A stretch of DNA of 64,000 nucleotides from NCBI RefSeq assembly GCF_053078305.1, contig NZ_CP166879.1; one strand, written 5' to 3'. Positions 1 to 12,709 of this stretch are shown here, piece after piece (position 1 is the stretch's first letter; every line of letters starts with the position of its first letter). The position numbers and the translations under genes are program-made. Under the pieces are notes generated by a model. It did not search any database. It saw nothing but the letters and a program-made list of their open reading frames with translations, and was not told the origin of the DNA.

Positions 1-150
1 ACCCGTGGGGCCAATCAGTTTTACAGCGTCATGGAACGGCTGAAGATGCTCGATTCCCTGCAGGCAACACAGCTTCAGTCGGCCATTGTTAAAGCCATTT
101 ATGTCTATCATCTCCCCGTAGTTGTCCGCATCGTTCGCCAACTCCACTGA
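1..150 (+). CDS. B: phage portal protein (lambda gpB-like), upstream part; 5' partial at window edge and interrupted after codon at nt 96, then 18 foreign codons to a stop
   Basis: Frame 1 reads ...FYSVMERLKMLDSLQATQLQSAIVKA, continuous with MYAATIESELD at 11936; matches remembered lambda portal. Confidence 0.75.
   Translation, partial: TRGANQFYSVMERLKMLDSLQATQLQSAIVKAIYVYHLPVVVRIVRQLH
91..98. other. left junction core repeat AAAGCCAT (putative attL core; extended 12/13 match to nt 103)
   Basis: Identical 8-mer at 11930-11937 exactly where the portal reading frame is broken and resumed. Confidence 0.6.
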
Positions 151-227
151 AACCCTTGCTGCGGCTGGAATGTCGTTTTCCATACTTTTGATGACCGTTC
201 ATCACACTTCCAGGTTTTCGCGGTTTT

Positions 228-280
228 GTGTATTGCAATGTGTATTGCAAATTGGCGATCGGGATGGGTGTGTATTGCAA
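228..280 (+). repeat. three direct copies of GTGTATTGCAA upstream of int (putative arm-type recombinase binding sites)
   Basis: Copies at 228-238, 240-250, 270-280; two more copies at 11835-11857 near the right end. Confidence 0.55.
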
Positions 281-298
281 ATCTCTTGAGGGCTGTTA

Positions 299-1540
299 AT
301 GGCTATTGAAAACAAACTCAGTGACAAACTGTTAAAGAGTCTTGTCGGAAAACGGCAGGACAAACAAAAAACAATAGCGGATGGGCGCGGGTTGTCTGTG
401 CGTGTAAGCATGGTTGGGGGGATCAGCTTTGTTTTTTACTATCGTCTTGGTGGCAGGGAATCCCCTCCGGTATGGCTTACACTTGGGCGCTATCCTGATA
501 TGTCTCTTGCAACAGCCAGGCGCATGCGTGATCAGTGCCGTGAGTGGCTGGCTGAAAATCTGGACCCCCGCAGGCAAATAAAACTTGCCGCCGAAAAAAC
601 CATGCAACCAGTGACCGTAAGGGATGCGCTGTTTTACTGGTACGACAATCACGCCACAACAGCCAGAAAAGAGCATGAATATTTAATAAAACGATTTGAA
701 AAGCATATCTTCCCCTATATCGGTGATATGGCTATAGAACAGTGCAAATTACACACATGGCTTGCCGTCTTTGACAGGATCAAAAAAAATGCGCCTGTTA
801 TGTCTGGTGCAATTTTTCTTGATATCAAACAGGCGTTGCGTTTTTGTCGCGTCAGGCAATACATCGCGTGCGATCCCTTTGGCGATATTAACGTAAGTTA
901 TGTCGGGCGCTCATCCGGTATAAGGGATCGCGTTCTTAATATCAATGAAACAGCGGATGTATGGTCTTATGCTTACGGTAATAATTTGCTGACACTGTCA
1001 TCAATACATAACAGAAGAATAATGGTTATCTGCCTGGTGTTTGGTTGCCGTCAGCAGGAGGCGAGGTTATCCACATGGGACGAATGGGATTTAAAAAACT
1101 GGGTATGGACAGTCCCAAAAGAGCACAGCAAAAACAAGGAGGCCATAGTAAGGCCTGTTCCTGACGGCATAAAACAATGGCTCGTTAATCTTTACGCAGA
1201 AACAAAAAATCGCGGTTATGTTGTCGGTTGTGCTTTGCAAAGGGCGACAATAACAGGGGCTGCAAACAGAATATGCAGGCGTCTTGGTCATGATATTAAT
1301 GGCTTGTGGTGCATACATGATTTCAGGCGCACATTTTCCACTGCGCTTAATGATATGGGGGCGGATCCTTATATTGTCGAACTTCTTTTAGGTCATAAAG
1401 TGAAAGGGGTTGCCGGTGTTTACAATAAAAGCAGGCATATAAAGAAAAAACTTGAGGTGCTTAATATGTGGGTTAATTACCTTAATACGATAGCAGGATT
1501 TAACAACAACGTTATCGAGCTTAATAAAGAGGTGGTGTGA
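299..1540 (+). CDS. int: tyrosine-type site-specific integrase (P4-like family)
   Basis: 413 aa; N-terminal arm-binding-like region, C-terminal HDFRRT...LLGH...GVAGVY catalytic motifs; position at element end. Confidence 0.85.
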   Translation: MAIENKLSDKLLKSLVGKRQDKQKTIADGRGLSVRVSMVGGISFVFYYRLGGRESPPVWLTLGRYPDMSLATARRMRDQCREWLAENLDPRRQIKLAAEKTMQPVTVRDALFYWYDNHATTARKEHEYLIKRFEKHIFPYIGDMAIEQCKLHTWLAVFDRIKKNAPVMSGAIFLDIKQALRFCRVRQYIACDPFGDINVSYVGRSSGIRDRVLNINETADVWSYAYGNNLLTLSSIHNRRIMVICLVFGCRQQEARLSTWDEWDLKNWVWTVPKEHSKNKEAIVRPVPDGIKQWLVNLYAETKNRGYVVGCALQRATITGAANRICRRLGHDINGLWCIHDFRRTFSTALNDMGADPYIVELLLGHKVKGVAGVYNKSRHIKKKLEVLNMWVNYLNTIAGFNNNVIELNKEVV

Positions 1541-1541
1541 T

Positions 1542-1799
1542 ATGGCAATTTATTCTCTTGTTGATGAAAACGATTTGCGCACAATGAAGGACATTGATCG
1601 GTTCATTCGTGAAAAAGAGTGCATAGCACTTACCACGCTGGCAAACTCAACACGCTGGAAAATGGAGCAGGCAGGTAAATTCCCGCGACGTATCAAGATC
1701 GGTGAACGTGCGGCAGGGTATCGACTTTCAGAGGTTCAGGCATGGATCCGTGGTGAGTGGCATCCTGGATGGAAACCTGGAAAAACAAAACAGCAATAA
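1542..1799 (+). CDS. alpA: AlpA-family phage transcriptional regulator / excisionase-like HTH protein
   Basis: 85 aa, overlaps int stop, pattern typical of AlpA (CP4-57 regulatory protein) family. Confidence 0.7.
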   Translation: MAIYSLVDENDLRTMKDIDRFIREKECIALTTLANSTRWKMEQAGKFPRRIKIGERAAGYRLSEVQAWIRGEWHPGWKPGKTKQQ

Positions 1800-1853
1800 C
1801 CAGTAAATAACGCCCCTCATCAAGAGGGGTTTTTGTCTATAGGGTAAAACGCG

Positions 1854-2432
1854 ATGAATAAAAATATTGCCGTGACGGGCAAGGGGTACGCTCGTCCAGT
1901 GAAAAAATTCTGTGATATTCGTGATCTTGTCGTTCTGCGCTTTGATGGTGTGAGCGTTCGCGTGGTGTATGTGAACGGCGATCCGTGGTTTGTTGCCGTT
2001 GACGTGTGCGCTGCGCTGGAAATTGTTGATCACAAGGTTGCGTTACGCCGTCTCGATGATGATGAAAAGGGGGAGTGTTTAATACCCACCCCAGGTGGAA
2101 ATCAAACAATGCGAACGGTATGCGAGTCAGGGTTCTACAAACTAATCGCCAGAAGTCGGAAAGCTGTTACTCCTGGCACGTTCGCCCGTCGTTTCAGTAA
2201 CTGGGTATTCAGAAATGTGATACCAGGTATCAGAAAAACGGGGGCTTATGGTATCCCGTGGGGGGCATTACAGGATTTTTCCCGCCGTAAAGAGCAATAT
2301 CAAATAAGTGCCAGCGAGAAGGGGAGGGAGCTACAGGCATGTAAGCGCAAAAAACGTGAACTGGAGGAAGAAGAAAAAAGGCTGATACGTGAATATCAGC
2401 CTGAGTTTTACTTTGGTGAGCGTATTCAGTAA
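1854..2432 (+). CDS. Bro-N domain protein (phage antirepressor-like)
   Basis: 192 aa; N-terminal FDGVSVRVVYVNGDPWFVAVDVCAALEI resembles Bro-N/antirepressor domain. Confidence 0.55.
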   Translation: MNKNIAVTGKGYARPVKKFCDIRDLVVLRFDGVSVRVVYVNGDPWFVAVDVCAALEIVDHKVALRRLDDDEKGECLIPTPGGNQTMRTVCESGFYKLIARSRKAVTPGTFARRFSNWVFRNVIPGIRKTGAYGIPWGALQDFSRRKEQYQISASEKGRELQACKRKKRELEEEEKRLIREYQPEFYFGERIQ

Positions 2433-2770
2433 CCACACGCGGTGCTGATTATACGGTACATCGTGTTAACCGAGAAGCTACCCACCAGCAAGGCAAAATC
2501 TTCTGCTAAAAAATGACATATGGCCAGTCGTCCGGAAAGCATGAAATTTTACAAAAATGGAAAATGAAGATTTTTATTGTGCTGGTGGGTAAAAACAAAA
2601 AGCGCCCCGTTGCCGGAGCGCCCTTGTGAACAATTAACCTGCTGCGAAAAAATTGGATCAGTGCAGGGAAATTATATCAACTGTGTGAAGAAGCGCCACA
2701 ATTGCCAGTTTAGCTTTGCGGCGAACGCGTCAATAAAGAATATTCTTTCTTTAAATTCTGTTTGTGTATT

Positions 2771-2800
2771 TTTTCGTAGTTTTTCGTAGTTTTTCGTAAG
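2771..2800. repeat. tandem repeat TTTTTCGTAG x3
   Basis: Three perfect 10-bp units in the intergenic gap between convergent genes. Confidence 0.6.
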
Positions 2801-2895
2801 GAGAAAGAGCGGCGCGTATGCACCGCTAAGGAGTTTATTTTCATGACTTATGCAGCTTTCAATCTTAGCACCGCCGTAGCTGGTGGACAAGGCTA

Positions 2896-3123
2896 TCAGC
2901 CAGGCGGTCGGTTTTTAGTGGCTTTTAACCGCCGTGGGTATTTCTCGACAAAATCTTCAAGGGCAAATTTTTCTGGTGGCACTAAGCGCGGCGCTGGTGG
3001 TGGTATTTTTGTTCTGGTTAGTTCTTCCTCAAGTCTGGCGCAGGCTTCTAACTGCCTTTGCCGGATGATTTCATCATCTTGCGTTTGCGTGTCTTGTATT
3101 GGTGATAGTGTGTTGTTGGTCAT
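2896..3123 (-). CDS. hypothetical protein
   Basis: 75-aa ORF co-directional with RHH gene; preferred over overlapping low-complexity + strand ORF. Confidence 0.35.
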   Translation of the reverse strand: MTNNTLSPIQDTQTQDDEIIRQRQLEACARLEEELTRTKIPPPAPRLVPPEKFALEDFVEKYPRRLKATKNRPPG

Positions 3124-3180
3124 GATACTGCCCTGTAAAGCAATGCGCCGGAGTACCTCACGCCACGGCGCTGATAGTGA

Positions 3181-3486
3181 TTATTCTGATTCTTGGGTCT
3201 TGCGACGCTGGAGTTCTTCGCGTGCAACGGTGACAAGTTGCCCGATTTCTTCCGCTGCTTTGATGCCGATTTGTTCGACCTTAGCCAGAGCATCCAGTGA
3301 AGACACAAGGGGATTTTCTCCGCTGCCTTCTGCCTGGCGGCGGGCGATTTCACCGCGCATGGCGGTTACTATGAATCCGGCGTTGCTTTCACCGTCCAGT
3401 TTTACGGATTCCATGCCTTCAATAACATCATGCGGGATCCGAGCTGTCAGTGATTGTGATTTTGCGTTTTTTGAACCTGTAGCCAT
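3181..3486 (-). CDS. ribbon-helix-helix (CopG/Arc-like) DNA-binding protein, putative element repressor
   Basis: SLTARIPHDVIEGMESV beta-strand/helix pattern; ATG at 3486 with GAGAGGA RBS; divergent from rightward operon. Confidence 0.5.
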   Translation of the reverse strand: MATGSKNAKSQSLTARIPHDVIEGMESVKLDGESNAGFIVTAMRGEIARRQAEGSGENPLVSSLDALAKVEQIGIKAAEEIGQLVTVAREELQRRKTQESE

Positions 3487-3700
3487 CTGTAATCCTCTCA
3501 ATGAAAGTGTAAGACAATATACACATAAAAAGTCTTACATAAAAGCATTGACATGTAAGCCACCTATAAATAAAGTTACTTACACCTTGTTAATGCAAGG
3601 TGCAGAAACGACGAAACCCGGCAGTGCGCTAACACTAACCGGGCTTCTAACCACCAACGATAGAAAGCGTATCGAGGTAGCTATGAGAAATCATACCACA
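3487..3700. promoter_or_regulatory. divergent promoter/operator region with repeated TGTAAGACA / GTCTTACAT / ACATGTAAG motifs
   Basis: AT-rich intergenic region between leftward RHH gene and rightward operon, repeated half-sites. Confidence 0.45.
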
Positions 3701-4045
3701 CACCCGCAAGGGCGGGACTCGCACAACCTGAATAAATACATCTGGCGTTTTCTGGCCCGAAAAAACCAGTTGATCGCCAGTGTCGAAAATAGCTATGATT
3801 CCCGCGCACCTCATAAAACGGGTGCCGGGATTGGCGTCCTGGGCAAAACTGAAGCGCATAACACGCGCCCCGCGTGTTTTTTTGTGCCGCATAGTCACAC
3901 CTTATCAATGGTGGGCTGTACGGGGGCGGAGCAATCCGCGCCGGTTTCTTCAGTGTCCGGTTACGCCAACCCTGTACAGTCCGCCACCAGCGAAATTGGC
4001 GTTTCCGGTGGCGGTTATCTTAACCACACTGAGGAGGCTGCCAAC

Positions 4046-4237
4046 ATGGCTACTATCCCTACCCTTGTACATTCTCAAACCGCCTTTCTCTGGCGCTTTA
4101 TCATCTTTGGCGCGTCAGACCATCAAATCATCCACGTCACCGCCTGGACGGAACGCGAAGCGCGTAGCCGTTGCCCGTCCGGTTGTGTTGCTGTATTCGC
4201 CGCCCGTATTCGTCAGGAGGTGTGCCATGTGCAATAA
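4046..4237 (+). CDS. Icd-like small protein (P4 cell-division-inhibitor family), tentative
   Basis: 63 aa, GAGGAGG RBS at 4031-4037; resembles remembered Icd-like proteins of P4-type elements. Confidence 0.4.
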   Translation: MATIPTLVHSQTAFLWRFIIFGASDHQIIHVTAWTEREARSRCPSGCVAVFAARIRQEVCHVQ

Positions 4238-4484
4238 AACCACACCGGACGCAGCCGCCGCGCTCACTACACTGATGCACGCGCTGATTGATATTTCTGT
4301 TATTGCTGACAGGGCGCATAAGCACGCCACCAGTGAAACAGAATATGCCGGGGCTTTCGTTCCTCATTCGCTGGCGGTTATGCAACTTAGTGCTGATATG
4401 GCGCTGAATGAGGCCAAAGCTATCCTGATTTCTGATTGTGAAAATGGGGGGGGGTTATGCGTGATGATCGTTTTAATGCCCTGA
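4227..4484 (+). CDS. hypothetical protein
   Basis: ATG overlapping previous stop, CAGGAGG RBS; operon context. Confidence 0.45.
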   Translation: MCNKTTPDAAAALTTLMHALIDISVIADRAHKHATSETEYAGAFVPHSLAVMQLSADMALNEAKAILISDCENGGGLCVMIVLMP

Positions 4485-4678
4485 AACAGGAGTTTGATGG
4501 TGCGCCTGATGATGCAGGTGATGCGCTTTCGTCAATATCCGAACTGATAAGAGTGGCCTTTTTCTTACTTGGCACGAAAGAATATAAATCAACTGGAATA
4601 GACGTACTGAATATTACTGCTGATTATGCGGAATATATGGCAGAAGTGGATTTAAGAAAGATAACGGACAGGGGGTAA
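4457..4678 (+). CDS. hypothetical protein
   Basis: 73 aa, G-rich RBS upstream, overlaps previous gene end. Confidence 0.45.
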   Translation: MRDDRFNALKQEFDGAPDDAGDALSSISELIRVAFFLLGTKEYKSTGIDVLNITADYAEYMAEVDLRKITDRG

Positions 4679-4679
4679 T

Positions 4680-4913
4680 ATGCGTGATATTTACCACGAA
4701 ACAATAGACCGCGCATTTAGTGCCCTTGCTTACGCTGAAGGTATGTACGAAATATTGCAAATGTGTCTGGAAACATTTGGCGATAATGAGCGTGATGTAA
4801 AGAAGGCGCGGATTATTAAATCACTGATAACTCTCCTTGAACCTGTAATAACAGAGTTGCAGGAAATAGACTTATTGCACGACAGATATAACGAACAGCA
4901 CACCGGAGAATAA
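4680..4913 (+). CDS. hypothetical protein
   Basis: 77 aa, AGGGGG RBS, tightly packed operon. Confidence 0.45.
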   Translation: MRDIYHETIDRAFSALAYAEGMYEILQMCLETFGDNERDVKKARIIKSLITLLEPVITELQEIDLLHDRYNEQHTGE

Positions 4914-4918
4914 AAATA

Positions 4919-5218
4919 ATGAAACTTAAATATCCTGGCTTAACTGCCAGTGGCAACACTCACCCTAAATTTACGCGCGGTGATATTTACCGCGACCAGT
5001 ACGGCGGCACGGTAATGATTAAGGGCGTGGCGGGACGGTGCGTAACTTACCGCCGTGAAGGCTACGAATATGATTGCGTGATGCCTGTTTATCAGTTCCG
5101 GCGTGATTTTTCTCTGGTACAGACCGCGCCGCATAACGTGCCCACCAGCAACGCCAGGGCACGGGCAAACATCCAGAAGCTGAAAACCATGATTAACGGA
5201 TTCAGGGGTAAAAAATGA
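4919..5218 (+). CDS. hypothetical protein
   Basis: 99 aa, GGAG RBS, stop overlaps next start. Confidence 0.45.
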   Translation: MKLKYPGLTASGNTHPKFTRGDIYRDQYGGTVMIKGVAGRCVTYRREGYEYDCVMPVYQFRRDFSLVQTAPHNVPTSNARARANIQKLKTMINGFRGKK

Positions 5219-6624
5219 AACTGGCACCGAACGTAAAACGATTACCGAAAGATAAATACACCGAAGCGGTTATTTTTGCGGGTATTGATGCTCACTCATT
5301 CGCAGAGCATTACATCATTGCACAGGCCAAAAAAGCAGGCGATCCAGTCCCTCCCGTTTATCTGGGGCGTTATCAGTTAAGCGAACTGGATAACCTCCAG
5401 ATTGTTGATGATGGGCGATACAGGGCGACGGTGATACGCGCCGGAAATATTGAAGAGCCGCAGCTGTTAACCATCGCCACGAAACTGGCGAGCGCCGGAG
5501 TCCAGGAGGCGCGGCTACTTTCTGAAAATTTCGAATTGCTGGAGGAATGGAGCGACCAGCTTCCACGGCTTAGGGAGGCATGGGAACGCGGGGAAAGCCT
5601 GGTCATGAAAAAAATTCCCCAGCGAAAAACCACGCTACCGATGAGCGTTGGATCTACCGGATACGACACACAGCTTGATTACGTGGTAAAGGGGATTATT
5701 CCGGCATCGTCGCTTTGCAGCATATACGGGGCGAGCGGTTCCTATAAATCATTCCTTGCCGGATCGTGGGCGTGTCACGTTTCCACGGGCCGCCAGTGGG
5801 GAGGCCGCAGGGTGGCGCATGGCGCTGTTCTCTATGTGGTTGGTGAAGGCGGTATCGGCGTTCCGCGTCGTGTAAAAGCCTGGGAGGTTGTGCACGGTGA
5901 GCAGGTGAAAAATCTGTATCTGGTAAACCGTCCCATCTTTCCGGCTGTCCCGCTTGATGTTGATGAACTGGTTATTGCTGCCAGTCAGGTGGAGAGGGAA
6001 ACGGGTAAACCTGTTCGCATGATTATTCTGGACACGCTGGCGCGTTGCTTTGGCGGCAATGATGAAAATGACTCCCGCGACATGGGGGCATTTATCCGTG
6101 GTTGTGACGAGCTTAAACGGCGCACAGGGGCTACGGTGCTGGTGGTTCACCATTCCGGCAAGGATGAAACAAAGGGGGCGCGTGGTTCCAGTGCATTTCG
6201 TGCATCACTGGACGCTGAATACCGGATACGCAGGGAGGACGCAGGAAGCGAAGCGCTGGTTATCTCATGCACCAAAATGAAGGACGCGGAGGAACTCAAA
6301 GAGGCTGCCTATGATTTGCGGGTGGTGGAGCTTTTTACCGACGCTGACGGGGAGTTAATTACGTCGCTGGTGGTGGTGGATAAGCCGCGCCCTCCCGTTG
6401 AACTGGAGCGCATCGAGGAGGCAGGCAACAAGACGGAAAACCATACCGCGCTATGGGGGTGCATCCGTTCACGCACACAGAACGGCGACAAGTGCACGAT
6501 CCCGCTGTTACGTGACGATATGAAAAAGCTGGGGTATGACACAAAACACCTTAAACGATGGTTAGCCAAACTGGAAAAAGACGACGTGATCTACATTGAC
6601 GGTGATGATGTAGGACCACTGTAA
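5215..6624 (+). CDS. replication initiation protein, RecA-like ATPase (AAA_25/RepA-type) with C-terminal DNA-binding domain
   Basis: 469 aa; Walker A-like GASGSYKS, Walker B MIILD, LVVHHSGKD motif; iterons immediately downstream. Confidence 0.7.
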   Translation: MKLAPNVKRLPKDKYTEAVIFAGIDAHSFAEHYIIAQAKKAGDPVPPVYLGRYQLSELDNLQIVDDGRYRATVIRAGNIEEPQLLTIATKLASAGVQEARLLSENFELLEEWSDQLPRLREAWERGESLVMKKIPQRKTTLPMSVGSTGYDTQLDYVVKGIIPASSLCSIYGASGSYKSFLAGSWACHVSTGRQWGGRRVAHGAVLYVVGEGGIGVPRRVKAWEVVHGEQVKNLYLVNRPIFPAVPLDVDELVIAASQVERETGKPVRMIILDTLARCFGGNDENDSRDMGAFIRGCDELKRRTGATVLVVHHSGKDETKGARGSSAFRASLDAEYRIRREDAGSEALVISCTKMKDAEELKEAAYDLRVVELFTDADGELITSLVVVDKPRPPVELERIEEAGNKTENHTALWGCIRSRTQNGDKCTIPLLRDDMKKLGYDTKHLKRWLAKLEKDDVIYIDGDDVGPL

Positions 6625-6830
6625 AAAGTGGGCATTAAAAGTGGGAAAGGTGGGCGATTTAACGTAATTTTAACAAAATCACCCACTTTCCCACGTGTAT
6701 ATATCCCAAAAAGTGGGCACTAAAAAAATACCTATGAAACAAGATGATATAAATCCCAAACTTCCCACGTTGGACGAAGTGGGAAAACGTAAAAAGTGGG
6801 CGAAAAAAGTGGGTAGAGGTGGGCGAATGA
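6625..6830. repeat. iteron array, putative replication origin of the satellite
   Basis: About ten copies of AAGTGGG(C/A) / GGTGGGCGA in both orientations directly downstream of the rep gene. Confidence 0.7.
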
Positions 6831-7078
6831 CTCAAAAACACAGAGACAGAACAGAGCCAAAATATAAAGCGTTAGACATGACAGAGCACGCTTTAAAGGT
6901 GGCAATCAGGGTAATAGACCGCCACACGCGGGAAGGATACGCGAAGGAACATCCCGACCTGATAAGCGCATTCATGACCACAGCGGCGGCAAACTTTGCC
7001 ACGCTGACAGAACGGGAGATAGCCGAAGCGGAACAGGTAACAACCATCAACGTTAAAACCGGAGAGGTGGAATCATGA
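6827..7078 (+). CDS. hypothetical protein
   Basis: 83 aa from ATG at 6827 (upstream part of track ORF lies in the iterons). Confidence 0.45.
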   Translation: MTQKHRDRTEPKYKALDMTEHALKVAIRVIDRHTREGYAKEHPDLISAFMTTAAANFATLTEREIAEAEQVTTINVKTGEVES

Positions 7079-7485
7079 CAGCACAGATAGCCGCTTACGG
7101 GCGGCTGGTGGACGACCCGCAGGTAAAACAAACCAGCAAGGGCACACCGATGACGCTGGCGCGTATGGCGGTATCTCTGCCATGCAGCCAGGCACAGGAC
7201 GGGCAGGCTACGTTATGGCTATCAGTGATGGCATTTGGTAAGCAGGCCGACTTCCTGGCTAAACATCAAAAAGGCGATGTTGCCAGCGTATCCGGCACGA
7301 TGCAGGTAAGCCAGTGGACCAGACAGAACGGGGAAACGCGGCAGGGTTATCAGGTTATTGCAGACAGTGTAATCAGTGCCCGTGCTGCCCGTCCTGGCGG
7401 GAGCAGACGTACAACCACAGGCACACAGGGTAATCAGCCACCAGCGGGAGGCGATGACCCTTACGGTGACGGTATTCCGTTCTGA
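7075..7485 (+). CDS. ssb: single-stranded DNA-binding protein
   Basis: OB-fold pattern and acidic C-terminal tail DDPYGDGIPF typical of SSB. Confidence 0.75.
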   Translation: MTAQIAAYGRLVDDPQVKQTSKGTPMTLARMAVSLPCSQAQDGQATLWLSVMAFGKQADFLAKHQKGDVASVSGTMQVSQWTRQNGETRQGYQVIADSVISARAARPGGSRRTTTGTQGNQPPAGGDDPYGDGIPF

Positions 7486-7495
7486 GGGGGTGACG

Positions 7496-7768
7496 ATGGT
7501 ACATGACCGCATAGCGGAGGAACTCGAGGCAAAAGGCTTTTACCGGAGGGCGGCGGCGCGATGGGGTGAAGTTATGCAGCTGGTGGAGACAGACAAGGAA
7601 CGGCATCAGGTTACGATGCGACGGCTGGAATGTTCCAGGAAGGCACAGAGGCCACCGGAGCCGCCGGATAACTTCGGAGACCTGAAAAAAGCAGTAGATC
7701 GCACTTATGCCGAAATGGGTATGGATGGTGTAAGCGATGAAATATGGCGTAATTACCCAGACAGCTAA
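7496..7768 (+). CDS. PerC-family transcriptional regulator
   Basis: 90 aa; IAEELEAKGFYRRAAARW motif resembles PerC family. Confidence 0.5.
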   Translation: MVHDRIAEELEAKGFYRRAAARWGEVMQLVETDKERHQVTMRRLECSRKAQRPPEPPDNFGDLKKAVDRTYAEMGMDGVSDEIWRNYPDS

Positions 7769-7774
7769 TCAACA

Positions 7775-7796
7775 GCCGGAGAAATCCGGCTTTTTT
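7775..7796 (+). terminator. rho-independent terminator (GCCGGAGAAATCCGGC + T-run)
   Basis: Perfect hairpin then TTTTTT; identical hairpin recurs at 10049-10071. Confidence 0.65.
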
Positions 7797-8007
7797 GTAC
7801 CCAAAAAAAGCCCGATAAGTACAGGAGGCATCTTATCGGGCTTTTGCATATGAGGTTTTTTTGGTGCACTGACACACATGATCGGGGTAATCATTTCATA
7901 ATTTGCAACACAACTCAACATCATTGCACAAAATGCAATCCTGATTATAATCAGAGCTGGATGAACATCCAGTTCTGATTTTTTAAGTCAAAGAGGAATT
8001 TCTTACT

Positions 8008-8214
8008 ATGGCTGAAGAGAAAAAAGGCGGTGTTTCGGTGTACATAAGCCCCGAAATCGTGGAGGTGCTCAAGCAGCGCCACAAAAAAAACTATGAGGCT
8101 GGCGTAGCGGCTGGACTGGATCCGCTGATGACGCCGGAGCCGTCGATAGGTTCACTTGTGCGCTCTTATTTACTTGCGGCGCTTGGGATGCATAAAAATT
8201 ATGGTGGTGAATAA
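8008..8214 (+). CDS. hypothetical protein
   Basis: 68 aa, AAGAGG RBS, first gene of capsid operon. Confidence 0.45.
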   Translation: MAEEKKGGVSVYISPEIVEVLKQRHKKNYEAGVAAGLDPLMTPEPSIGSLVRSYLLAALGMHKNYGGE

Positions 8215-9269
8215 TGACAGTAAAAGCAATGGCACTTACAACTAACCAGCTTTTCGCGTACCTGAATCGCGGGGATATTGCAGAATTTAAATTCAGTCCG
8301 CTGTTTACCACGCTGTTTTTCCCGAACGTGGCGACCTTCAACACCCAGAACATCATGCTGGACACCCTGGACATTGAAGAGGTTACGATGTCAGCGTTCT
8401 GTTCGCCTATGGTGGGTAGTCAGGTCCAGCGCGATAAAGGGTACGAAACCAGCACGATTAAACCAGGCTACATGAAACCCAAACACGAAATCGATCCAAC
8501 AAAAACCATCATGCGCATGGCTGGAGAAGATCCGGCACAGCTTAACGACCCTACCTACCGCCGTATGCGCCTGATTACTGGCAACATGCGCCGCCAGATA
8601 AACGCCATTAAAGCGCGCGTGGAATGGCTGGCGGTGAATGCGATAACGACCGGAAAAAACATCATTGAGGGCGAAGGCATAGAACGCTATGAAATCGACT
8701 GGAAAATACCGGAAAACTGCATCATAGAGCAGGCCAAGGGTAAAAAATGGTCCGAGCATGATAAAGATATTTACGATCCAATCTATGACATCGAACTATA
8801 CGCAGATCAGGCAGGTTGCCCCGCCAACGTCATGATTATGGGCGCTGAGGTATGGCGCACGTTACGCAGCTTTAAAAAATTCCGCGAACTGTACGATCTT
8901 TCCCGTGGTTCAGAATCCGCCGCAGAACTGGCCTGTAAAAACCTGGGTGAAGTAGTGAGCTTTAAAGGCTATCTGGGCGATATTGCCCTTATCGTCTATT
9001 CCGGCAAATACACTGACAGCGACGGTACCGAAAAATATTTCCTTGAGCCTGATTTGCTGGTCCTGGGTAACACCAACAATAAAGGGCTGGTGGCCTATGG
9101 TGCGATTATGGATCAGGAAGCGGTAAGAACGGGCGCAACGCAAAACATGTTCTACCCGAAAAACTGGATTGAAGACGGCGATCCGGCGATTGAGTACGTT
9201 CAGACGCACAGCGCACCGCAGCCGGTACCGGCAGATATTCGCAAATTTGTTACCGTCAAAATTGCTTAA
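8214..9269 (+). CDS. major capsid protein, lambda gpE-like paralog encoded by the satellite
   Basis: 351 aa; clear similarity to helper E at 14646-15674 (PGYVKPKHE, EDPAQLNDP, VVSFKGY, VLGNT motifs). Confidence 0.85.
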   Translation: MTVKAMALTTNQLFAYLNRGDIAEFKFSPLFTTLFFPNVATFNTQNIMLDTLDIEEVTMSAFCSPMVGSQVQRDKGYETSTIKPGYMKPKHEIDPTKTIMRMAGEDPAQLNDPTYRRMRLITGNMRRQINAIKARVEWLAVNAITTGKNIIEGEGIERYEIDWKIPENCIIEQAKGKKWSEHDKDIYDPIYDIELYADQAGCPANVMIMGAEVWRTLRSFKKFRELYDLSRGSESAAELACKNLGEVVSFKGYLGDIALIVYSGKYTDSDGTEKYFLEPDLLVLGNTNNKGLVAYGAIMDQEAVRTGATQNMFYPKNWIEDGDPAIEYVQTHSAPQPVPADIRKFVTVKIA

Positions 9270-9280
9270 CGGGGGATTCT

Positions 9281-9616
9281 ATGGACACTCCATACATTGA
9301 GTTATTTGCAGGCAGTCAGCAGGTATCCACGACGCTGGTACATTTTGCCGCTGATGCTGGCGTTATTCAGGAATTTACCCCGCTGATGCTGGCGGACAAT
9401 GGCGAGTTTAAGCCGTGGGATGGTCAGGAATCTGGCAAGGCTGTTTATCTGACCTCGTACCCCGTGGACACGTCAAAGCAGAAATCAGCACAGTGTTACA
9501 AGACGGGGATATTTAATATCGCCGCCGTAAACTGGCCTGAGAGCGCCGACACTGACGCGAAAAAATGCGCCGCCTTTGCGGGTTCTGGCGTATCCGTTCA
9601 GCCGCTGGCGCGATAA
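9281..9616 (+). CDS. head decoration protein, lambda gpD-like paralog
   Basis: 111 aa; TPLMLA...WDGQ...YKSG/TGIF...WPES...AFAG pattern shared with helper D at 14241-14588. Confidence 0.75.
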   Translation: MDTPYIELFAGSQQVSTTLVHFAADAGVIQEFTPLMLADNGEFKPWDGQESGKAVYLTSYPVDTSKQKSAQCYKTGIFNIAAVNWPESADTDAKKCAAFAGSGVSVQPLAR

Positions 9617-9628
9617 GCAGGGGAAACG

Positions 9629-10042
9629 ATGGCAACGAATGAAAGCATCATGGCGCTACCGCTGGCGAGTAAATTTAAAGCAGAAGCGCGGGCAATGGCT
9701 GACAGAGGTTTATCAACCTACGAGGCCGTATATCAACTCAACAAACTGGAAGAGCAGGACAAGCCGCGCGCTGATGCGATTATGGCGCTTCATGAACATA
9801 ACGACTATCAGCCGCTGTTACGTGCAATGGCAAACGTGCCATGTATTAGCGTCGATAATGCTCGTGAAATCCTGAACATGACCATAGAGCAGGAGCGCCC
9901 AAAGGTTGCGCCGGAGCTTACCGCAGCCTTTGAAAACTTTATGGACATGCACAGCCCGAAAGCCGTATCACCCGGCATGGCATACGACGGCAGAAACCAG
10001 GGCGATGAAGGCGACGTCGATCGCATACTGAAAACCATCTGA
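9629..10042 (+). CDS. scaffold protein, Nu3-like (scaffold domain only, no protease domain)
   Basis: 137 aa; C-terminus AAFENFMDMHSPKAV...DEGDVD parallels helper C/Nu3 C-terminus ALFEHFMANHSPAAV...ADGDAD. Confidence 0.65.
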   Translation: MATNESIMALPLASKFKAEARAMADRGLSTYEAVYQLNKLEEQDKPRADAIMALHEHNDYQPLLRAMANVPCISVDNAREILNMTIEQERPKVAPELTAAFENFMDMHSPKAVSPGMAYDGRNQGDEGDVDRILKTI

Positions 10043-10048
10043 CATAAG

Positions 10049-10071
10049 GCCGGAGAAATCCGGCTTTTTTT
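10049..10071 (+). terminator. rho-independent terminator after capsid operon
   Basis: GCCGGAGAAATCCGGC hairpin followed by TTTTTTT. Confidence 0.65.
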
Positions 10072-10130
10072 ACGGGTCCTTTCCGGCATATGGACCCGTT
10101 ACGGGGCGGCGACCTCGCGGTTTTTCGCTA
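10072..10130 (+). other. cos site 1 (cosN GGGCGGCGACCT at 10104-10115 with cosQ-like and cosB-like flanks), rightward orientation
   Basis: Exact lambda 12-nt cohesive-end sequence and lambda-like flanks ACGGGTCCTTTCCGG...CGCGGTTTTTCGCTATTTATGA. Confidence 0.8.
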
Positions 10131-10248
10131 TTTATGAGCTTTTTTCGGGTGCTGGTGGTGGTTTTGTTGTTCGCTCTATCTCTATGAATAAAAAGGGAAA
10201 GATAAAACCAATACACCAACCTGAAACATTACTTAAGTGGGGATATTG

Positions 10249-10791
10249 ATGAAATCGCACCTGATGAACAAAAAAAACATGGCGCAAAGCTGCCGTGTAA
10301 GTGCGACAGCGTTCGACAAGTGGGGAGTGACTCCCGTTGAACGTAAAGGACGCGAGGCTTTTTACGATGTTGCCAGCGTGATAGACAATCGGGTAAGCAA
10401 TGCAATTAACCAGGTTACAAACGACAAAGGCGAGATTGATGATGATGAACTCTTACGAGTCAGGATCAGATTACTGACCGCCCAGGCTGAGGCGCAGGAA
10501 CTTAAAAACGAGCGCGATCGCGGTGACGTAATTGATACTGAGTTTTGCCTGTACGCGCTTTCAAAGCTGGCGAGTCAGATTTCTTCAATCATGGACAGTT
10601 TGCCGCTTACCATGCAAAGGCGCTTCCCGCAGATTACTCCCGCTATGCTGGATGGGCTTAAAAGGGAAGTGGTTAAAGCCTGTAATGCCAGTGCCACAGT
10701 TGCCGACAACCTCCCGAAGATACTGGCTGATTACCTGATGGAAACTACCGGAGACGTACCGGAGAAGTTGCTACAGAAGAAAGGCGAGTAA
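10249..10791 (+). CDS. terminase small subunit, lambda Nu1-like
   Basis: LTAQAEAQELKNERDRGDVIDTEFCLYALSKLASQISSIMDSLPLTMQRRFP parallels remembered lambda Nu1; start uncertain (10237/10249/10264). Confidence 0.75.
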   Translation: MKSHLMNKKNMAQSCRVSATAFDKWGVTPVERKGREAFYDVASVIDNRVSNAINQVTNDKGEIDDDELLRVRIRLLTAQAEAQELKNERDRGDVIDTEFCLYALSKLASQISSIMDSLPLTMQRRFPQITPAMLDGLKREVVKACNASATVADNLPKILADYLMETTGDVPEKLLQKKGE

Positions 10792-10962
10792 CAGACGCGC
10801 AATTATTGAACAAAAGTAAGGCCCGACATGAAATCACCCAAAAATGCCTTTTTCATGCGTTTGTATGTCTGACCTTTTACGGTTTCGATATTATAAAAAA
10901 CAAATAGTTACGCTCGAGAGGTACCGACACGCATTTTTCAGGAAAATTTTCATAAACAGATA

Positions 10963-11015
10963 AAAACCGCGAGGTCGCCGCCCCGTAACGGGCCATAATT
11001 CCAGGAAGGACCCGA
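10963..11015 (-). other. cos site 2 (cosN reverse complement at 10972-10983), inverted relative to cos site 1
   Basis: AGGTCGCCGCCC plus lambda-like flanks on the minus strand. Confidence 0.75.
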
Positions 11016-11047
11016 CGACACCAGGCTATCAGAACGATGAGGGCACA

Positions 11048-11329
11048 ATGACAGAAGCCGAACTACTGGGATTAATCCGCTACGTTACCGGAATCAGCCA
11101 GCAGCATGACGAACAGGCCACGCAGCCGGACAGCGTGACCGCTGAAAATTATGCGCGTGTTGTTGCTGAGGTGATGCGCCGTGATGGTATCCAGCTTAAT
11201 GATGCAGATATGCGCGACATACGGATCCGCGTTCTTGAAATGCTGGCCTACCGTCGCCGCGTGCAGACGTACAGGGAAAAAGCAAAAATAACGTACCAGT
11301 GGAAGAAGCCGGAGCGATTACGGCGGTAA
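11048..11329 (+). CDS. hypothetical protein
   Basis: 93-aa ORF, last gene before the right junction. Confidence 0.4.
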   Translation: MTEAELLGLIRYVTGISQQHDEQATQPDSVTAENYARVVAEVMRRDGIQLNDADMRDIRIRVLEMLAYRRRVQTYREKAKITYQWKKPERLRR

Positions 11330-11834
11330 CTTGCTGATATTCCCGATAACGCAAAATTGCGCTCTGTCCTAACCCGTTGATATTTTCGGGAACAGCCAAC
11401 GGCTGAGGCCGGAACAACGATTATCTTTCAGATAGTCAGAGCTACGAAATTTTCGTAGTTTAATTACTCGCCAGTTTATCGTTAACTCGTTGATATTTTC
11501 GGTAACCTCAATTTGAGGAGATCGGAAACATAACCCTTCACATTCTGAATGGTTATAATGACCACTCAGACCATCAAGGCAACCATAACGAACATCGTTA
11601 CGGTTGGAGCTTTTACCCCACTGGGGGGAAGGTGCACATCTGGATCATCATTACCGTGATCAAGGGTATGTAAAACCCACCAGCCTGATTAACTGTTAAC
11701 CGGAAAAAAGCCAGGTAGCCAATCTCGATATGGGGATCCCCATATCGACATTAACGCCCCCTAGAACTGCGCATATCTGCATATAAAAACATCCACCAGC
11801 TTTATGACGGATGCCGCTCATCTGATAAATAATC

Positions 11835-11857
11835 GTGTATTGCAATGTGTATTGCGA
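11835..11857 (+). repeat. two direct copies of GTGTATTGCAA/GTGTATTGCGA near right end (arm-type sites)
   Basis: Same motif as the triplet at 228-280. Confidence 0.55.
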
Positions 11858-11929
11858 CTCCTTTAAACGATAGGTTTGAGCATTCGTAATGTACTGTTTT
11901 TAAATTTTATTTTTTCCTGTCTTTTCATA

Positions 11930-11937
11930 AAAGCCAT
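11930..11937. other. right junction core repeat AAAGCCAT (putative attR core)
   Basis: Identical to 91-98; portal frame resumes here. Confidence 0.6.
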
Positions 11938-12709
11938 GTATGCAGCGACGATTGAAAGTGAACTTGATACCGAAAAGGCCTTTGAATATATCGCCGGTGC
12001 GCCGCAGGGGCAGAAGGATAATCCGCTTATTAATATTCTGGATAAGTTCTCCACCTGGTATGACACGAATATCGTGACGCTGGGCGGTGTCAAAATTCCG
12101 CACCTTTTCCCCGGTGATGATCTGAAACTTCAGACCGCGCAGGATTCAGACAATGGATTTTCGGCGCTTGAACAGGCGCTGCTGCGGTATATCGCCGCCG
12201 GTCTTGGCGTTTCCTACGAACAGTTGTCCCGTGATTACTCGAAGGTCAGTTATTCAAGTGCCCGCGCCTCCGCCAATGAGTCGTGGCGCTATTTTATGGG
12301 ACGACGAAAATTTATTGCAGCCCGGCTGGCCACGCAGATGTTTTCCTGCTGGCTGGAAGAGGCACTTCTTCGGGGGATTATCCGTCCGCCACGGGCACGT
12401 TTTGATTTTTATCAGGCGCGTTCAGCCTGGTCGCGGGCAGAGTGGATTGGCGCAGGAAGAATGGCCATTGACGGGCTCAAGGAGGTCCAGGAATCAGTGA
12501 TGCGCATTGAGGCCGGACTGAGCACGTATGAGAAAGAGCTGGCGCTGATGGGTGAGGATTATCAGGACATTTTCCGCCAGCAGGTCAGGGAATCCGCAGA
12601 GCGGGAAAAAGCCGGACTCTCACGTCCGGTGTGGATAGCGCAGGCGTATCAGCAGCAGATAGCAGAGAGCCGCAGGCCGGAAGAGGAGACAACACCACGT
12701 GAGACGTAA
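11930..12709 (+). CDS. B: phage portal protein (lambda gpB-like), downstream part resuming after the insertion
   Basis: KAMYAATIESELD...YIAAGLGVSYEQLSR...MAIDGLKEVQE resembles remembered lambda portal C-terminal half. Confidence 0.8.
   Translation, partial: KAMYAATIESELDTEKAFEYIAGAPQGQKDNPLINILDKFSTWYDTNIVTLGGVKIPHLFPGDDLKLQTAQDSDNGFSALEQALLRYIAAGLGVSYEQLSRDYSKVSYSSARASANESWRYFMGRRKFIAARLATQMFSCWLEEALLRGIIRPPRARFDFYQARSAWSRAEWIGAGRMAIDGLKEVQESVMRIEAGLSTYEKELALMGEDYQDIFRQQVRESAEREKAGLSRPVWIAQAYQQQIAESRRPEEETTPRET

What the first reader, a model, noticed from the sequence alone, without database searches (positions are those of the whole stretch)
228..280. GTGTATTGCAA direct repeats at both ends of the satellite and ATTGCA-type motifs at the capsid operon promoter
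Three copies lie just upstream of int (228-280) and two just inside the right junction (11835-11857), as expected for arm-type integrase or excisionase sites in attL and attR. Related ATTGCA/TTGCAA motifs and a 26-bp imperfect palindrome (CAGAGCTGGATGAACATCCAGTTCTG) occur at 7900-7980 upstream of the capsid operon, which could couple recombination proteins or a shared regulator to late expression.
Basis: seen in the sequence. Interest (0 to 1): 0.5.

Follow-up and report, generated by a model that had tools for sequence, protein, structure and literature searches.

The report
Integrase arm sites of an embedded satellite
The repeated GTGTATTGCAA words are real and conserved. They are most likely docking sites for the integrase of a phage satellite that sits inside its helper prophage's portal gene, but this motif and this reading were already published in 2023, and the proposed link to the capsid promoter does not hold.

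Summary
GTGTATTGCAA occurs five times within one mismatch, at 228, 240, 270, 11835 and 11847, all on the + strand. About 1.1 such matches are expected by chance.

The element is an 11.8-kb satellite, a helper-embedded PICI (HE-PICI), inserted in a lambda-type portal gene. The true crossover block is AAAGCCAT, at 91-98 in attL and 11930-11937 in attR. The repeats therefore lie in the two arms of the attachment site, not at the junctions.

The core TGTATTGC is invariant in 129 doublets from more than 80 related elements, while its flanks vary. It keeps its position in relatives that use other crossover sites. The integrase has an arm DNA-binding domain. Integrase domain identities track the doublet word and the core site separately. 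Other PICI integrase lineages have the same geometry with different words.

The best reading is integrase arm-type sites (confidence 0.7). AlpA binding is not excluded. Tommasini et al. 2023 (PMC10111431) already described this doubled motif, its spacing and both candidate binders, so it is already known.

The ATTGCA/TTGCAA hexamers at 7900-7940 lack the TGTAT half of the motif. They look like promoter elements plus a separate small inverted repeat. The palindrome is a lineage-specific, terminator-like hairpin.

The parts
1..103 (+). 5' fragment of a lambda-type portal gene of the helper prophage, cut off by the start of the window. It ends in the attL core.
   Evidence: Matches to intact portal genes in about 1,900 E. 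coli genomes stop at base 103. The portal belongs to Pfam Phage_portal_2, and the site falls at K272-Y275.
91..103 (+). attL core. The identity block AAAGCCAT is at 91-98, followed by T99 and then TATG at 100-103.
   Evidence: Three-way alignment of attB, attL and attR. The same block is seen in relatives.
228..250 (+). P' arm doublet: two GTGTATTGCAA copies 12 bp apart, at 228-238 and 240-250. The first TGTATTGC core (229) lies about 134 bp from the centre of the identity block.
   Evidence: This is the published doubled motif.
270..280 (+). Third P' copy, 30 bp after the second and 19 bp before the int start codon. It is specific to the portal-site group.
   Evidence: It is invariant in all portal-group loci, including those with Int 76% identical to the window's, although the spacer between it and the doublet diverges. 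Other site groups lack it at this position.
299..1540 (+). int, a tyrosine integrase with an N-terminal arm DNA-binding domain at residues 7-94.
   Evidence: Pfam Arm-DNA-bind_3 with E = 1.7e-16, plus Phage_int_M and Phage_integrase. PHROG integrase.
1542..1799 (+). alpA-like excisionase or transcriptional regulator, the rival candidate binder.
   Evidence: PHROG 2790 and PHROG 66.
11835..11857 (+). P arm doublet: GTGTATTGCAA at 11835-11845 and GTGTATTGCGA at 11847-11857, 12 bp apart, in the same orientation as the P' copies. It ends 72 bp before the identity block.
11930..11942 (+). attR core: AAAGCCAT at 11930-11937, G11938, then TATG at 11939-11942. The 3' part of the portal gene resumes here and runs to 12709.
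7903..7951 (+). Promoter-like region upstream of the capsid operon. It holds TTGCAA (7903-7908), the inverted repeat ATTGCA-N5-TGCAAT (7923-7939), whose left arm overlaps a -35-like TTGCAC (7924-7929), and, after a 16-nt spacer, TATAAT (7946-7951). It is not an arm-type site.
   Evidence: Sequence read. The blocks are conserved in L022, where the promoter reads TTGCAA-16-TAAAAT. The tool's promoter scan did not call this site, because the -35 matches the consensus at only 3 of 6 positions.
7949..7980 (+). Hairpin with a 14-bp stem and 4-nt loop, followed by a T-run. It is terminator-like and overlaps the -10 hexamer.
   Evidence: Terminator scan. RNA fold of -19.8 kcal/mol with z = -5.9. The stem's one imperfect position is a G-U pair on the + strand. 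The hairpin is not conserved in L022.

Best explanation
The five copies are most likely arm-type binding sites for the satellite's own integrase.

What is shown:
- The element is a helper-embedded PICI inserted in the portal gene of a lambda-like prophage, in the same orientation as the late operon.
- Strand exchange lies within or beside the short block AAAGCCAT.
- In the excised circle, the attachment site would carry a doublet of TGTATTGC words about 90 bp to the left of that block, plus a doublet and one further copy about 135-180 bp to the right. All copies point the same way.

What is inferred:
- The N-terminal arm domains of the integrase tetramer hold these words while the catalytic domains hold the core. 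This folds the arms into the complex that integrates or excises the element.
- AlpA probably acts as the directionality factor.
- The P' copies sit between the core and the int start codon. Bound integrase should therefore also dampen transcription entering int, including read-through from the helper's late operon, as was shown for KplE1 IntS.
- Precise excision would restore the portal reading frame.
For: 1. The motif is far above chance and confined to the two arms.

2. The crossover was mapped with an empty site, so the repeats are arm elements, not core elements.

3. Int has Pfam Arm-DNA-bind_3 at residues 7-94.

4. GTGTATTGC is the only word of 8 nt or more shared by the two arms of the reconstructed 438-bp attP.

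5. The doublet is present upstream of int in all 80+ related loci. It is present at the far end wherever the locus reaches that far. TGTATTGC is essentially invariant in 129 doublets (38 distinct sequences), while the flanks vary.

6. The doublet keeps its distance to the core in relatives that use the capsid, ClpP-protease and other sites with unrelated cores.

7. Other PICI integrase lineages have the same two-arm doublet geometry with other words:
- TGTATAAAC in fis cfPICIs;
- GTGCAGTCA in another fis PICI;
- GGTATCCT in a tRNA-Ile PICI.
A common host protein is therefore an unlikely binder.

8. Int shows a double dissociation:
- pairs with the same doublet but different cores are 61-72% identical in the arm domain and 48-54% in the rest;
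- pairs at the same fis core but with different doublets are 53% identical in the arm domain and 64-66% in the rest.
Arm-domain identity separates same-doublet pairs (61% or more) from different-doublet pairs (55% or less). AlpA identity does not: same-doublet pairs span 58-71%, and different-doublet pairs reach 60%.

9. Published work reports the same motif, the same spacing and the same proposal (PMC10111431). KplE1 IntS gives an experimental precedent for arm sites in attL that repress the integrase gene (PMC2951348).
Against: - No binding or mutational data exist for this family. The published paper lists AlpA or an unknown protein as equally open.
- AlpA also co-varies broadly with the doublet. 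The separation in favour of the Int arm domain rests on nine lineages and on short local alignments.
- Recombination directionality factors also bind direct repeats about one helical turn apart (abstract of PMC7498355).
- The autoregulation step is inferred. No sigma-70-like int promoter was found between the core and int.
Confidence: 0.7

Rival explanations
1. The doublets are binding sites for AlpA, the excisionase and regulator encoded next to int. AlpA would bend both arms for excision, or control int-alpA transcription, rather than the sites serving the integrase arm domain.
For: - The discoverers of the motif leave this option open.
- AlpA is conserved at 58-71% identity across site groups that share the doublet.
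- Directionality factors typically bind direct repeats about one turn apart.
- The P' doublet lies just upstream of the int-alpA pair.
Against: - The sites sit in both arms at fixed, asymmetric distances. Known directionality-factor sites lie in one arm (established lambda, P2/186 and KplE1 knowledge, from memory).
- An integrase with an arm-binding domain would then be left with no repeated word to bind in attP.
- AlpA identity overlaps between same-doublet and different-doublet pairs, whereas Int arm-domain identity does not.
- In most site groups the doublet ends about 15 nt before the int ATG, which is a poor position for an activator.
Confidence: 0.2
2. The copies upstream of int are only promoter or operator elements for int (TTGCAA acting as a -35 hexamer), and the copies at the far end are a by-product.
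For: TTGCAA resembles TTGACA. The copies lie just upstream of int.
Against: - No hexamer pair with acceptable spacing exists in 104-298.
- The far-end doublet is conserved in sequence and in distance to the core across site groups, yet has no gene downstream.
- The invariant part is TGTATTGC, not TTGCAA.
Confidence: 0.04
3. The 21-bp direct repeat (228-248 = 11835-11855) is itself the duplicated att core at which crossover occurs.
For: It is an exact 21-bp direct repeat flanking most of the element (D18).
Against: The empty-site alignment places the junctions at 91-103 and 11930-11942. The sequences between these junctions and the repeats are absent from intact portal genes.
Confidence: 0.01

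Closest known systems
Doubled attP motif of helper-embedded PICIs (Tommasini, Mageeney and Williams 2023, NAR Genom Bioinform, PMC10111431)
   Same: - The word is the same: tgTGTATTGCantgTGTATTGCa.
- There are two co-oriented doublets.
- The spacing matches the published values of 81 +/- 2 bp upstream and 132 +/- 2 bp downstream of the attP centre to within a few bp.
- The element is of the same kind: int-alpA-Bro-primase-capsid, inserted in a prophage late gene in the late-operon orientation.
- The portal site is consistent with the published site B:Phage_portal_2:241.
   Different: - The paper speaks of four half-sites. This portal-group element has a fifth, strictly conserved copy at 270-280.
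- The paper calls the motif unique to HE-PICIs. Here, fis and tRNA-Ile PICIs show the same doublet geometry with different words.
Arm-type sites of phage lambda integrase (P1, P2, P'1-P'3)
   Same: - The integrase is heterobivalent, with an N-terminal arm-binding domain.
- The repeated word differs from the core.
- There are two copies in the P arm and three in the P' arm next to int.
   Different: - The Pfam family of the arm domain differs (Arm-DNA-bind_3, the P4-like type).
- The word differs, and all copies are co-oriented.
- The distances from the core are larger.
- No IHF consensus lies between the arm sites and the core.
- The comparison of site layout rests on memory of the lambda literature.
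KplE1 (CPS-53) IntS/TorI module (Panis et al. 2010, PMC2951348)
   Same: attL lies directly upstream of the integrase gene, so the arm-type sites overlap the integrase control region. In KplE1, IntS and the directionality factor both repress intS.
   Different: - In KplE1 a promoter and a transcription start were mapped. Here none is predicted.
- Here int may instead be reached by read-through from the helper's late operon.

Membership tests
HE-PICI doubled attP motif | The sequence tgTGTATTGCantgTGTATTGCa occurs as a tandem doublet with a 12-bp period. | tested here: met
   The doublets lie at 227-250 and 11834-11857. The consensus from 129 doublets is.
HE-PICI doubled attP motif | There are two co-oriented doublets, about 81 bp upstream and about 132 bp downstream of the crossover centre. 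| tested here: met
   The upstream doublet ends 72-80 bp before the identity block (11930-11937). The downstream doublet starts 129-136 bp after the identity block (91-98). The exact figures depend on where in the block the crossover lies.
HE-PICI doubled attP motif | The element is a PICI inserted in a prophage late gene, in the same orientation as that gene, without a replacement gene end. | tested here: met
   The portal gene is split at K272-Y275.
Arm-type sites of a heterobivalent tyrosine integrase | The integrase has an N-terminal arm DNA-binding domain. | tested here: met
   Pfam Arm-DNA-bind_3, residues 7-94, E = 1.7e-16.
Arm-type sites of a heterobivalent tyrosine integrase | A repeated word, different from the core, lies in both arms outside the crossover region. 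| tested here: met
Arm-type sites of a heterobivalent tyrosine integrase | The word co-varies with the arm domain and not with the core specificity. | tested here: met
   The double dissociation of Int domain identities, and four lineage-specific words. The sample is small.
Arm-type sites of a heterobivalent tyrosine integrase | The sites are bound by the Int N-domain and are required for recombination. | not testable with these tools
   This needs a gel shift or footprint and site mutagenesis. None is reported in PMC10111431.
Recombination directionality factor (Xis/AlpA) sites | Direct repeats about one helical turn apart. | tested here: inconclusive
   The period is 12 bp. That is compatible with a directionality factor but not specific to one.
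Recombination directionality factor (Xis/AlpA) sites | The sites are confined to one arm, between the core and the arm-type sites. | tested here: not met
   The same doublet lies in both arms, and no other shared repeat is present.
   - There is only one inverted 1-mismatch copy of the core (TGTGTTGC, 7905-7912, - strand). As an 11-mer it has 2 mismatches, which is background.
- The TGT part is lost in L022.
- The region is absent from EC28-type relatives.

The most novel reading that the evidence does not exclude
The 'doublet in both arms' layout may not be a peculiarity of helper-embedded satellites. It may be a general arm-site code of Gram-negative PICI integrases. Each Int N-domain lineage would read its own 8-9-nt word: TGTATTGC, TGTATAAAC, GTGCAGTCA or GGTATCCT. 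The geometry would stay fixed while the core specificity evolves independently. Target switching among prophage late genes would then need changes only in the core-binding and catalytic part of the protein. In the portal group, a fifth selected copy next to the int start would additionally gate int expression from helper late read-through.
Probability: 0.5. Interest if true: 0.4.

Novelty: already known. Interest (0 to 1): 0.22.

Why it matters
The motif marks the recombination machinery of satellites that live inside their helper prophage and keep an essential helper gene split until they excise. Knowing which protein reads the motif would explain how one integrase clade keeps a fixed arm architecture while repeatedly changing target gene. 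It would also allow these elements to be found and delimited by sequence alone.

The finding itself repeats a published description. Three small additions come from this work, and all three need experiments:
- the conserved fifth copy in the portal-site group;
- the same geometry with other words in fis and tRNA-Ile PICIs;
- the domain-wise co-variation of the integrase, which favours the integrase over AlpA as the binder.

Tried and rejected
- The 21-bp flanking direct repeat as the att core. Rejected by the empty-site alignment.
- Loose (2-mismatch) motif matches as evidence of further sites. Their count is at background.
- An IHF consensus in the arms. None lies between the doublets and the core. 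The matches lie at 11327-11495, outside the arms.
- A sigma-70 int promoter between the core and int. None was called.
- E. coli relatives of int for co-variation. All 62 full-length copies are about 98% identical to the window's, so they are uninformative. More distant lineages came from IMG/VR and from weak blastn hits.
- AlpA as a discriminator through the fis cfPICI L029. That element is IS1-deleted and has no alpA, so L088, L089 and L090 were used instead. The result only leans towards Int.
- Similarity between the late-promoter region and other loci. Only L003, which is identical there, and L022 match.
- A similarity search of the right-hand 25 kb of the window (39001-64000) to place the host. 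The best E. coli match was about 95% identical and consisted of other phage tail genes. This was not pursued.

Full report
**Observation.** GTGTATTGCAA is exact at 228, 240, 270 and 11835. It has one mismatch (GTGTATTGCGA) at 11847. All five copies are on the + strand.
- Within one mismatch there are 5 matches in the 64-kb window against 1.09 expected. None of 100 shuffles reached 5.
- At two mismatches the count is at background, 19 against 19.8.
- The 21-mer at 228-248 equals 11835-11855.
- The hexamers and the palindrome near 7900-7980 are also present.

**What the element is.** Bases 104-11929 carry the gene set of a phage-inducible chromosomal island:
- int (299-1540);
- an alpA-like gene (1542-1799);
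- a Bro/Ant-type gene;
- a primase-helicase gene;
- a major capsid gene (8214-9269);
- a decoration gene;
- a small terminase gene.

The flanks are the two halves of a lambda-family portal gene. The annotated relative in E. coli EC28 shows the same layout, embedded in a lambdoid late operon and pointing the same way.

An uninterrupted portal gene (L001) aligned with both junctions puts the crossover in TAAAGCCAT(G/T)TATG. This is window 91-103 in attL and 11930-11942 in attR. The site corresponds to portal residues K272-Y275 within Pfam Phage_portal_2.

The repeats are therefore not the junctions. In the reconstructed attP, one doublet ends 72 bp left of the identity block. A doublet plus a third copy lie about 130-185 bp to its right, between the core and the int start.

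**Comparative evidence.**
- 62 E. coli genomes carry this int and its upstream arm at about 98% identity to the window.
- IMG/VR and weaker hits gave Int relatives at 89%, 76% and 50-56% identity.
- E. coli N1420 carries a satellite with 53%-identical Int, inserted in the major capsid gene.
- Another element sits in a ClpP-protease/capsid fusion gene inside a second PICI.

In every one of more than 80 loci a TGTATTGC doublet with a 12-bp period lies just upstream of int. A second co-oriented doublet lies at the far end whenever the locus reaches that far.

Across 129 doublets (38 distinct sequences) TGTATTGC is essentially invariant, while neighbouring bases vary freely. In anchored views the arms of different site groups share little else, the cores are unrelated, and the distance from doublet to core is kept.

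The extra copy is specific to each group:
- In the portal group it lies 30 bp after the doublet. It is invariant even where the spacer has diverged.
- The capsid group has a degenerate TGTGTTGC 17 bp before the doublet.
- One lineage has three tandem copies.

**Who binds.** Int carries Pfam Arm-DNA-bind_3 at residues 7-94. GTGTATTGC is the only word of 8 nt or more shared by the two arms of the 438-bp reconstructed attP. No IHF consensus lies between the doublets and the core.

Other PICI integrase lineages have the same geometry with other words:
- fis-integrated cfPICIs have TGTATAAAC doublets at both ends;
- another fis PICI has GTGCAGTCA doublets;
- the tRNA-Ile PICI in L030 has GGTATCCT doublets with an 11-bp period.

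Because the word changes with the element within one host species, a common host factor is an unlikely binder.

Integrase domains behave as the arm-site model predicts:
- Pairs with the same doublet but different cores are 61-72% identical in the arm domain and 48-54% in the rest.
- The two fis lineages share a core but not a doublet. They are 53% identical in the arm domain and 64-66% in the rest.

Arm-domain identity separates same-doublet pairs (61% or more) from different-doublet pairs (55% or less). AlpA identity overlaps: same-doublet pairs span 58-71%, and different-doublet pairs reach 60%. This leans towards Int, but the sample is small.

AlpA remains a live alternative. Directionality factors also bind direct repeats about one turn apart.

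**Mechanism proposed.**
- Shown: the position, number, orientation and conservation of the sites, the crossover block, and the domain content of Int.
- Inferred: the Int N-domains bind the four universal half-sites and, in this group, a fifth, while the catalytic domains bind the core. AlpA directs excision. Bound Int over the P' copies limits transcription into int. This last point has an experimental precedent in KplE1 IntS, whose arm sites in attL overlap the intS promoter and mediate negative autoregulation (PMC2951348).

No sigma-70-like promoter is predicted between the core and int. This fits the published idea that helper late transcription reads into the satellite.

**The capsid-operon part.** The region 7903-7951 holds several elements:
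- TTGCAA (7903-7908);
- the inverted repeat ATTGCA-N5-TGCAAT (7923-7939), whose left arm overlaps a -35-like TTGCAC;
- a perfect TATAAT 16 nt downstream of that TTGCAC.

These blocks are conserved in L022, where the promoter reads TTGCAA-16-TAAAAT. They share only TTGCA with the arm word. The invariant TGTAT half is missing, and the one inverted near-match loses its TGT in L022.

Relatives with identical arm sites but a different late module (EC28 type) do not have this sequence.

The palindrome is a hairpin with a 14-bp stem, followed by a T-run. Its fold energy is -19.8 kcal/mol, with z = -5.9. Its one imperfect position is a G-U pair on the + strand. It overlaps the -10 hexamer and is not conserved in L022. 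It is therefore a lineage-specific terminator, attenuator or operator, and not part of a shared recombination-linked control.

**Comparison with what is known.** Tommasini, Mageeney and Williams (2023; PMC10111431) described this family as helper-embedded PICIs (HE-PICIs): 491 elements at 14 sites in cognates of lambda late genes, including B:Phage_portal_2:241. They showed excision for one capsid-site member.

They reported the doubled motif tgTGTATTGCantgTGTATTGCa, present twice per attP, 81 +/- 2 bp upstream and 132 +/- 2 bp downstream of the centre. [quoted passage not shown]

The points not found in the passages of that paper read here are:
- the fifth conserved copy in the portal group;
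- analogous doublets with other words in fis and tRNA-Ile PICIs, whereas the paper says the motif is absent there, which is true of the word but not of the architecture;
- the domain-wise co-variation of Int.

**Verdict.** The feature is real and functional-looking. It is correctly read as recombination-protein sites, most probably for the integrase, and it is already in the literature. The proposed link to late expression is not supported.

Noticed in passing
window 10073-10144 (+) and 10943-11014 (-): There are two lambda-type cos-like sites in inverted orientation flanking the satellite's small terminase gene (10237-10791). Each contains CGGGGCGGCGACCTCG, which I recognise from memory as the lambda cohesive-end sequence; this identification was not tested here. 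The repeat found is 72 nt at 82% complementarity. In a pairwise alignment the two copies stay similar over about 85 bp.
   Followed up: partly
L029 12237-12258 and 21669-21690; L088 13217-13238 and 23199-23220; L030 3176-3194 and 25515-25533: PICIs outside the helper-embedded group have 11-12-bp-period doublets at both ends of the element. They sit at HE-PICI-like positions but use other words: TGTATAAAC, GTGCAGTCA and GGTATCCT. This includes two integrase lineages that share the same fis core. The published statement that the doubled motif is unique to HE-PICIs therefore holds for the word, not for the architecture.
   Followed up: partly
window 11725-11748: A perfect 24-bp palindrome, TCGATATGGGGATCCCCATATCGA, lies about 190 bp left of the att core and outside the P doublet. 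A similar GATATGGGGAT sequence is seen near the ends of L019 and L030. Its role is unknown.
   Followed up: no
window 11327-11527: Three IHF-consensus matches on the - strand (11327, 11370 and 11483). Two of them lie within a 45-nt direct repeat (11370-11414 and 11483-11527). They sit between the last ORF and the P arm. This may be a packaging (cosB-like) or bending region.
   Followed up: no
window 6621-6813: Iteron-like AAAAAGTGGGCA repeats spaced about 84 bp apart, starting at the 3' end of the primase-helicase gene. This is the likely satellite replication origin.
   Followed up: no
window 197-212: The inverted repeat TGATGA-N4-TCATCA lies between the core and the P' doublet. It is conserved in L024 (portal group, Int 76% identical), where the surrounding sequence has diverged; L021 and L022 have TCATTA in the right arm. 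It is absent from the capsid-site group. It is a candidate one-arm site for a directionality factor or another regulator.
   Followed up: no
window 1812-1830, 3860-3878, 7774-7791, 7949-7980 and 10102-10117 (+ strand): Several terminator-like hairpins lie on the coding strand between satellite modules. This would fit expression that depends on terminator-resistant (Q-modified) helper late transcription. The last one coincides with the cos-like sequence.
   Followed up: no
L030 10310-12400: An HE-PICI sits in a ClpP-protease/capsid fusion gene of another PICI at tRNA-Ile. Its integrase gene is split by IS100, yet both of its arm doublets are intact.
   Followed up: no
window attL 91-98 and attR 11930-11937, compared with the same blocks in L002 (EC28): The identity block reads AAAGCCAT at both junctions in the window but AAGGCGAT at both junctions in EC28. 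It follows the local portal allele on both sides. Position 99/11938 is always T in attL and G in attR. This suggests that exchange occurs left of that position and that either the overlap sequence is taken from the target or attP co-varies with it.
   Followed up: no
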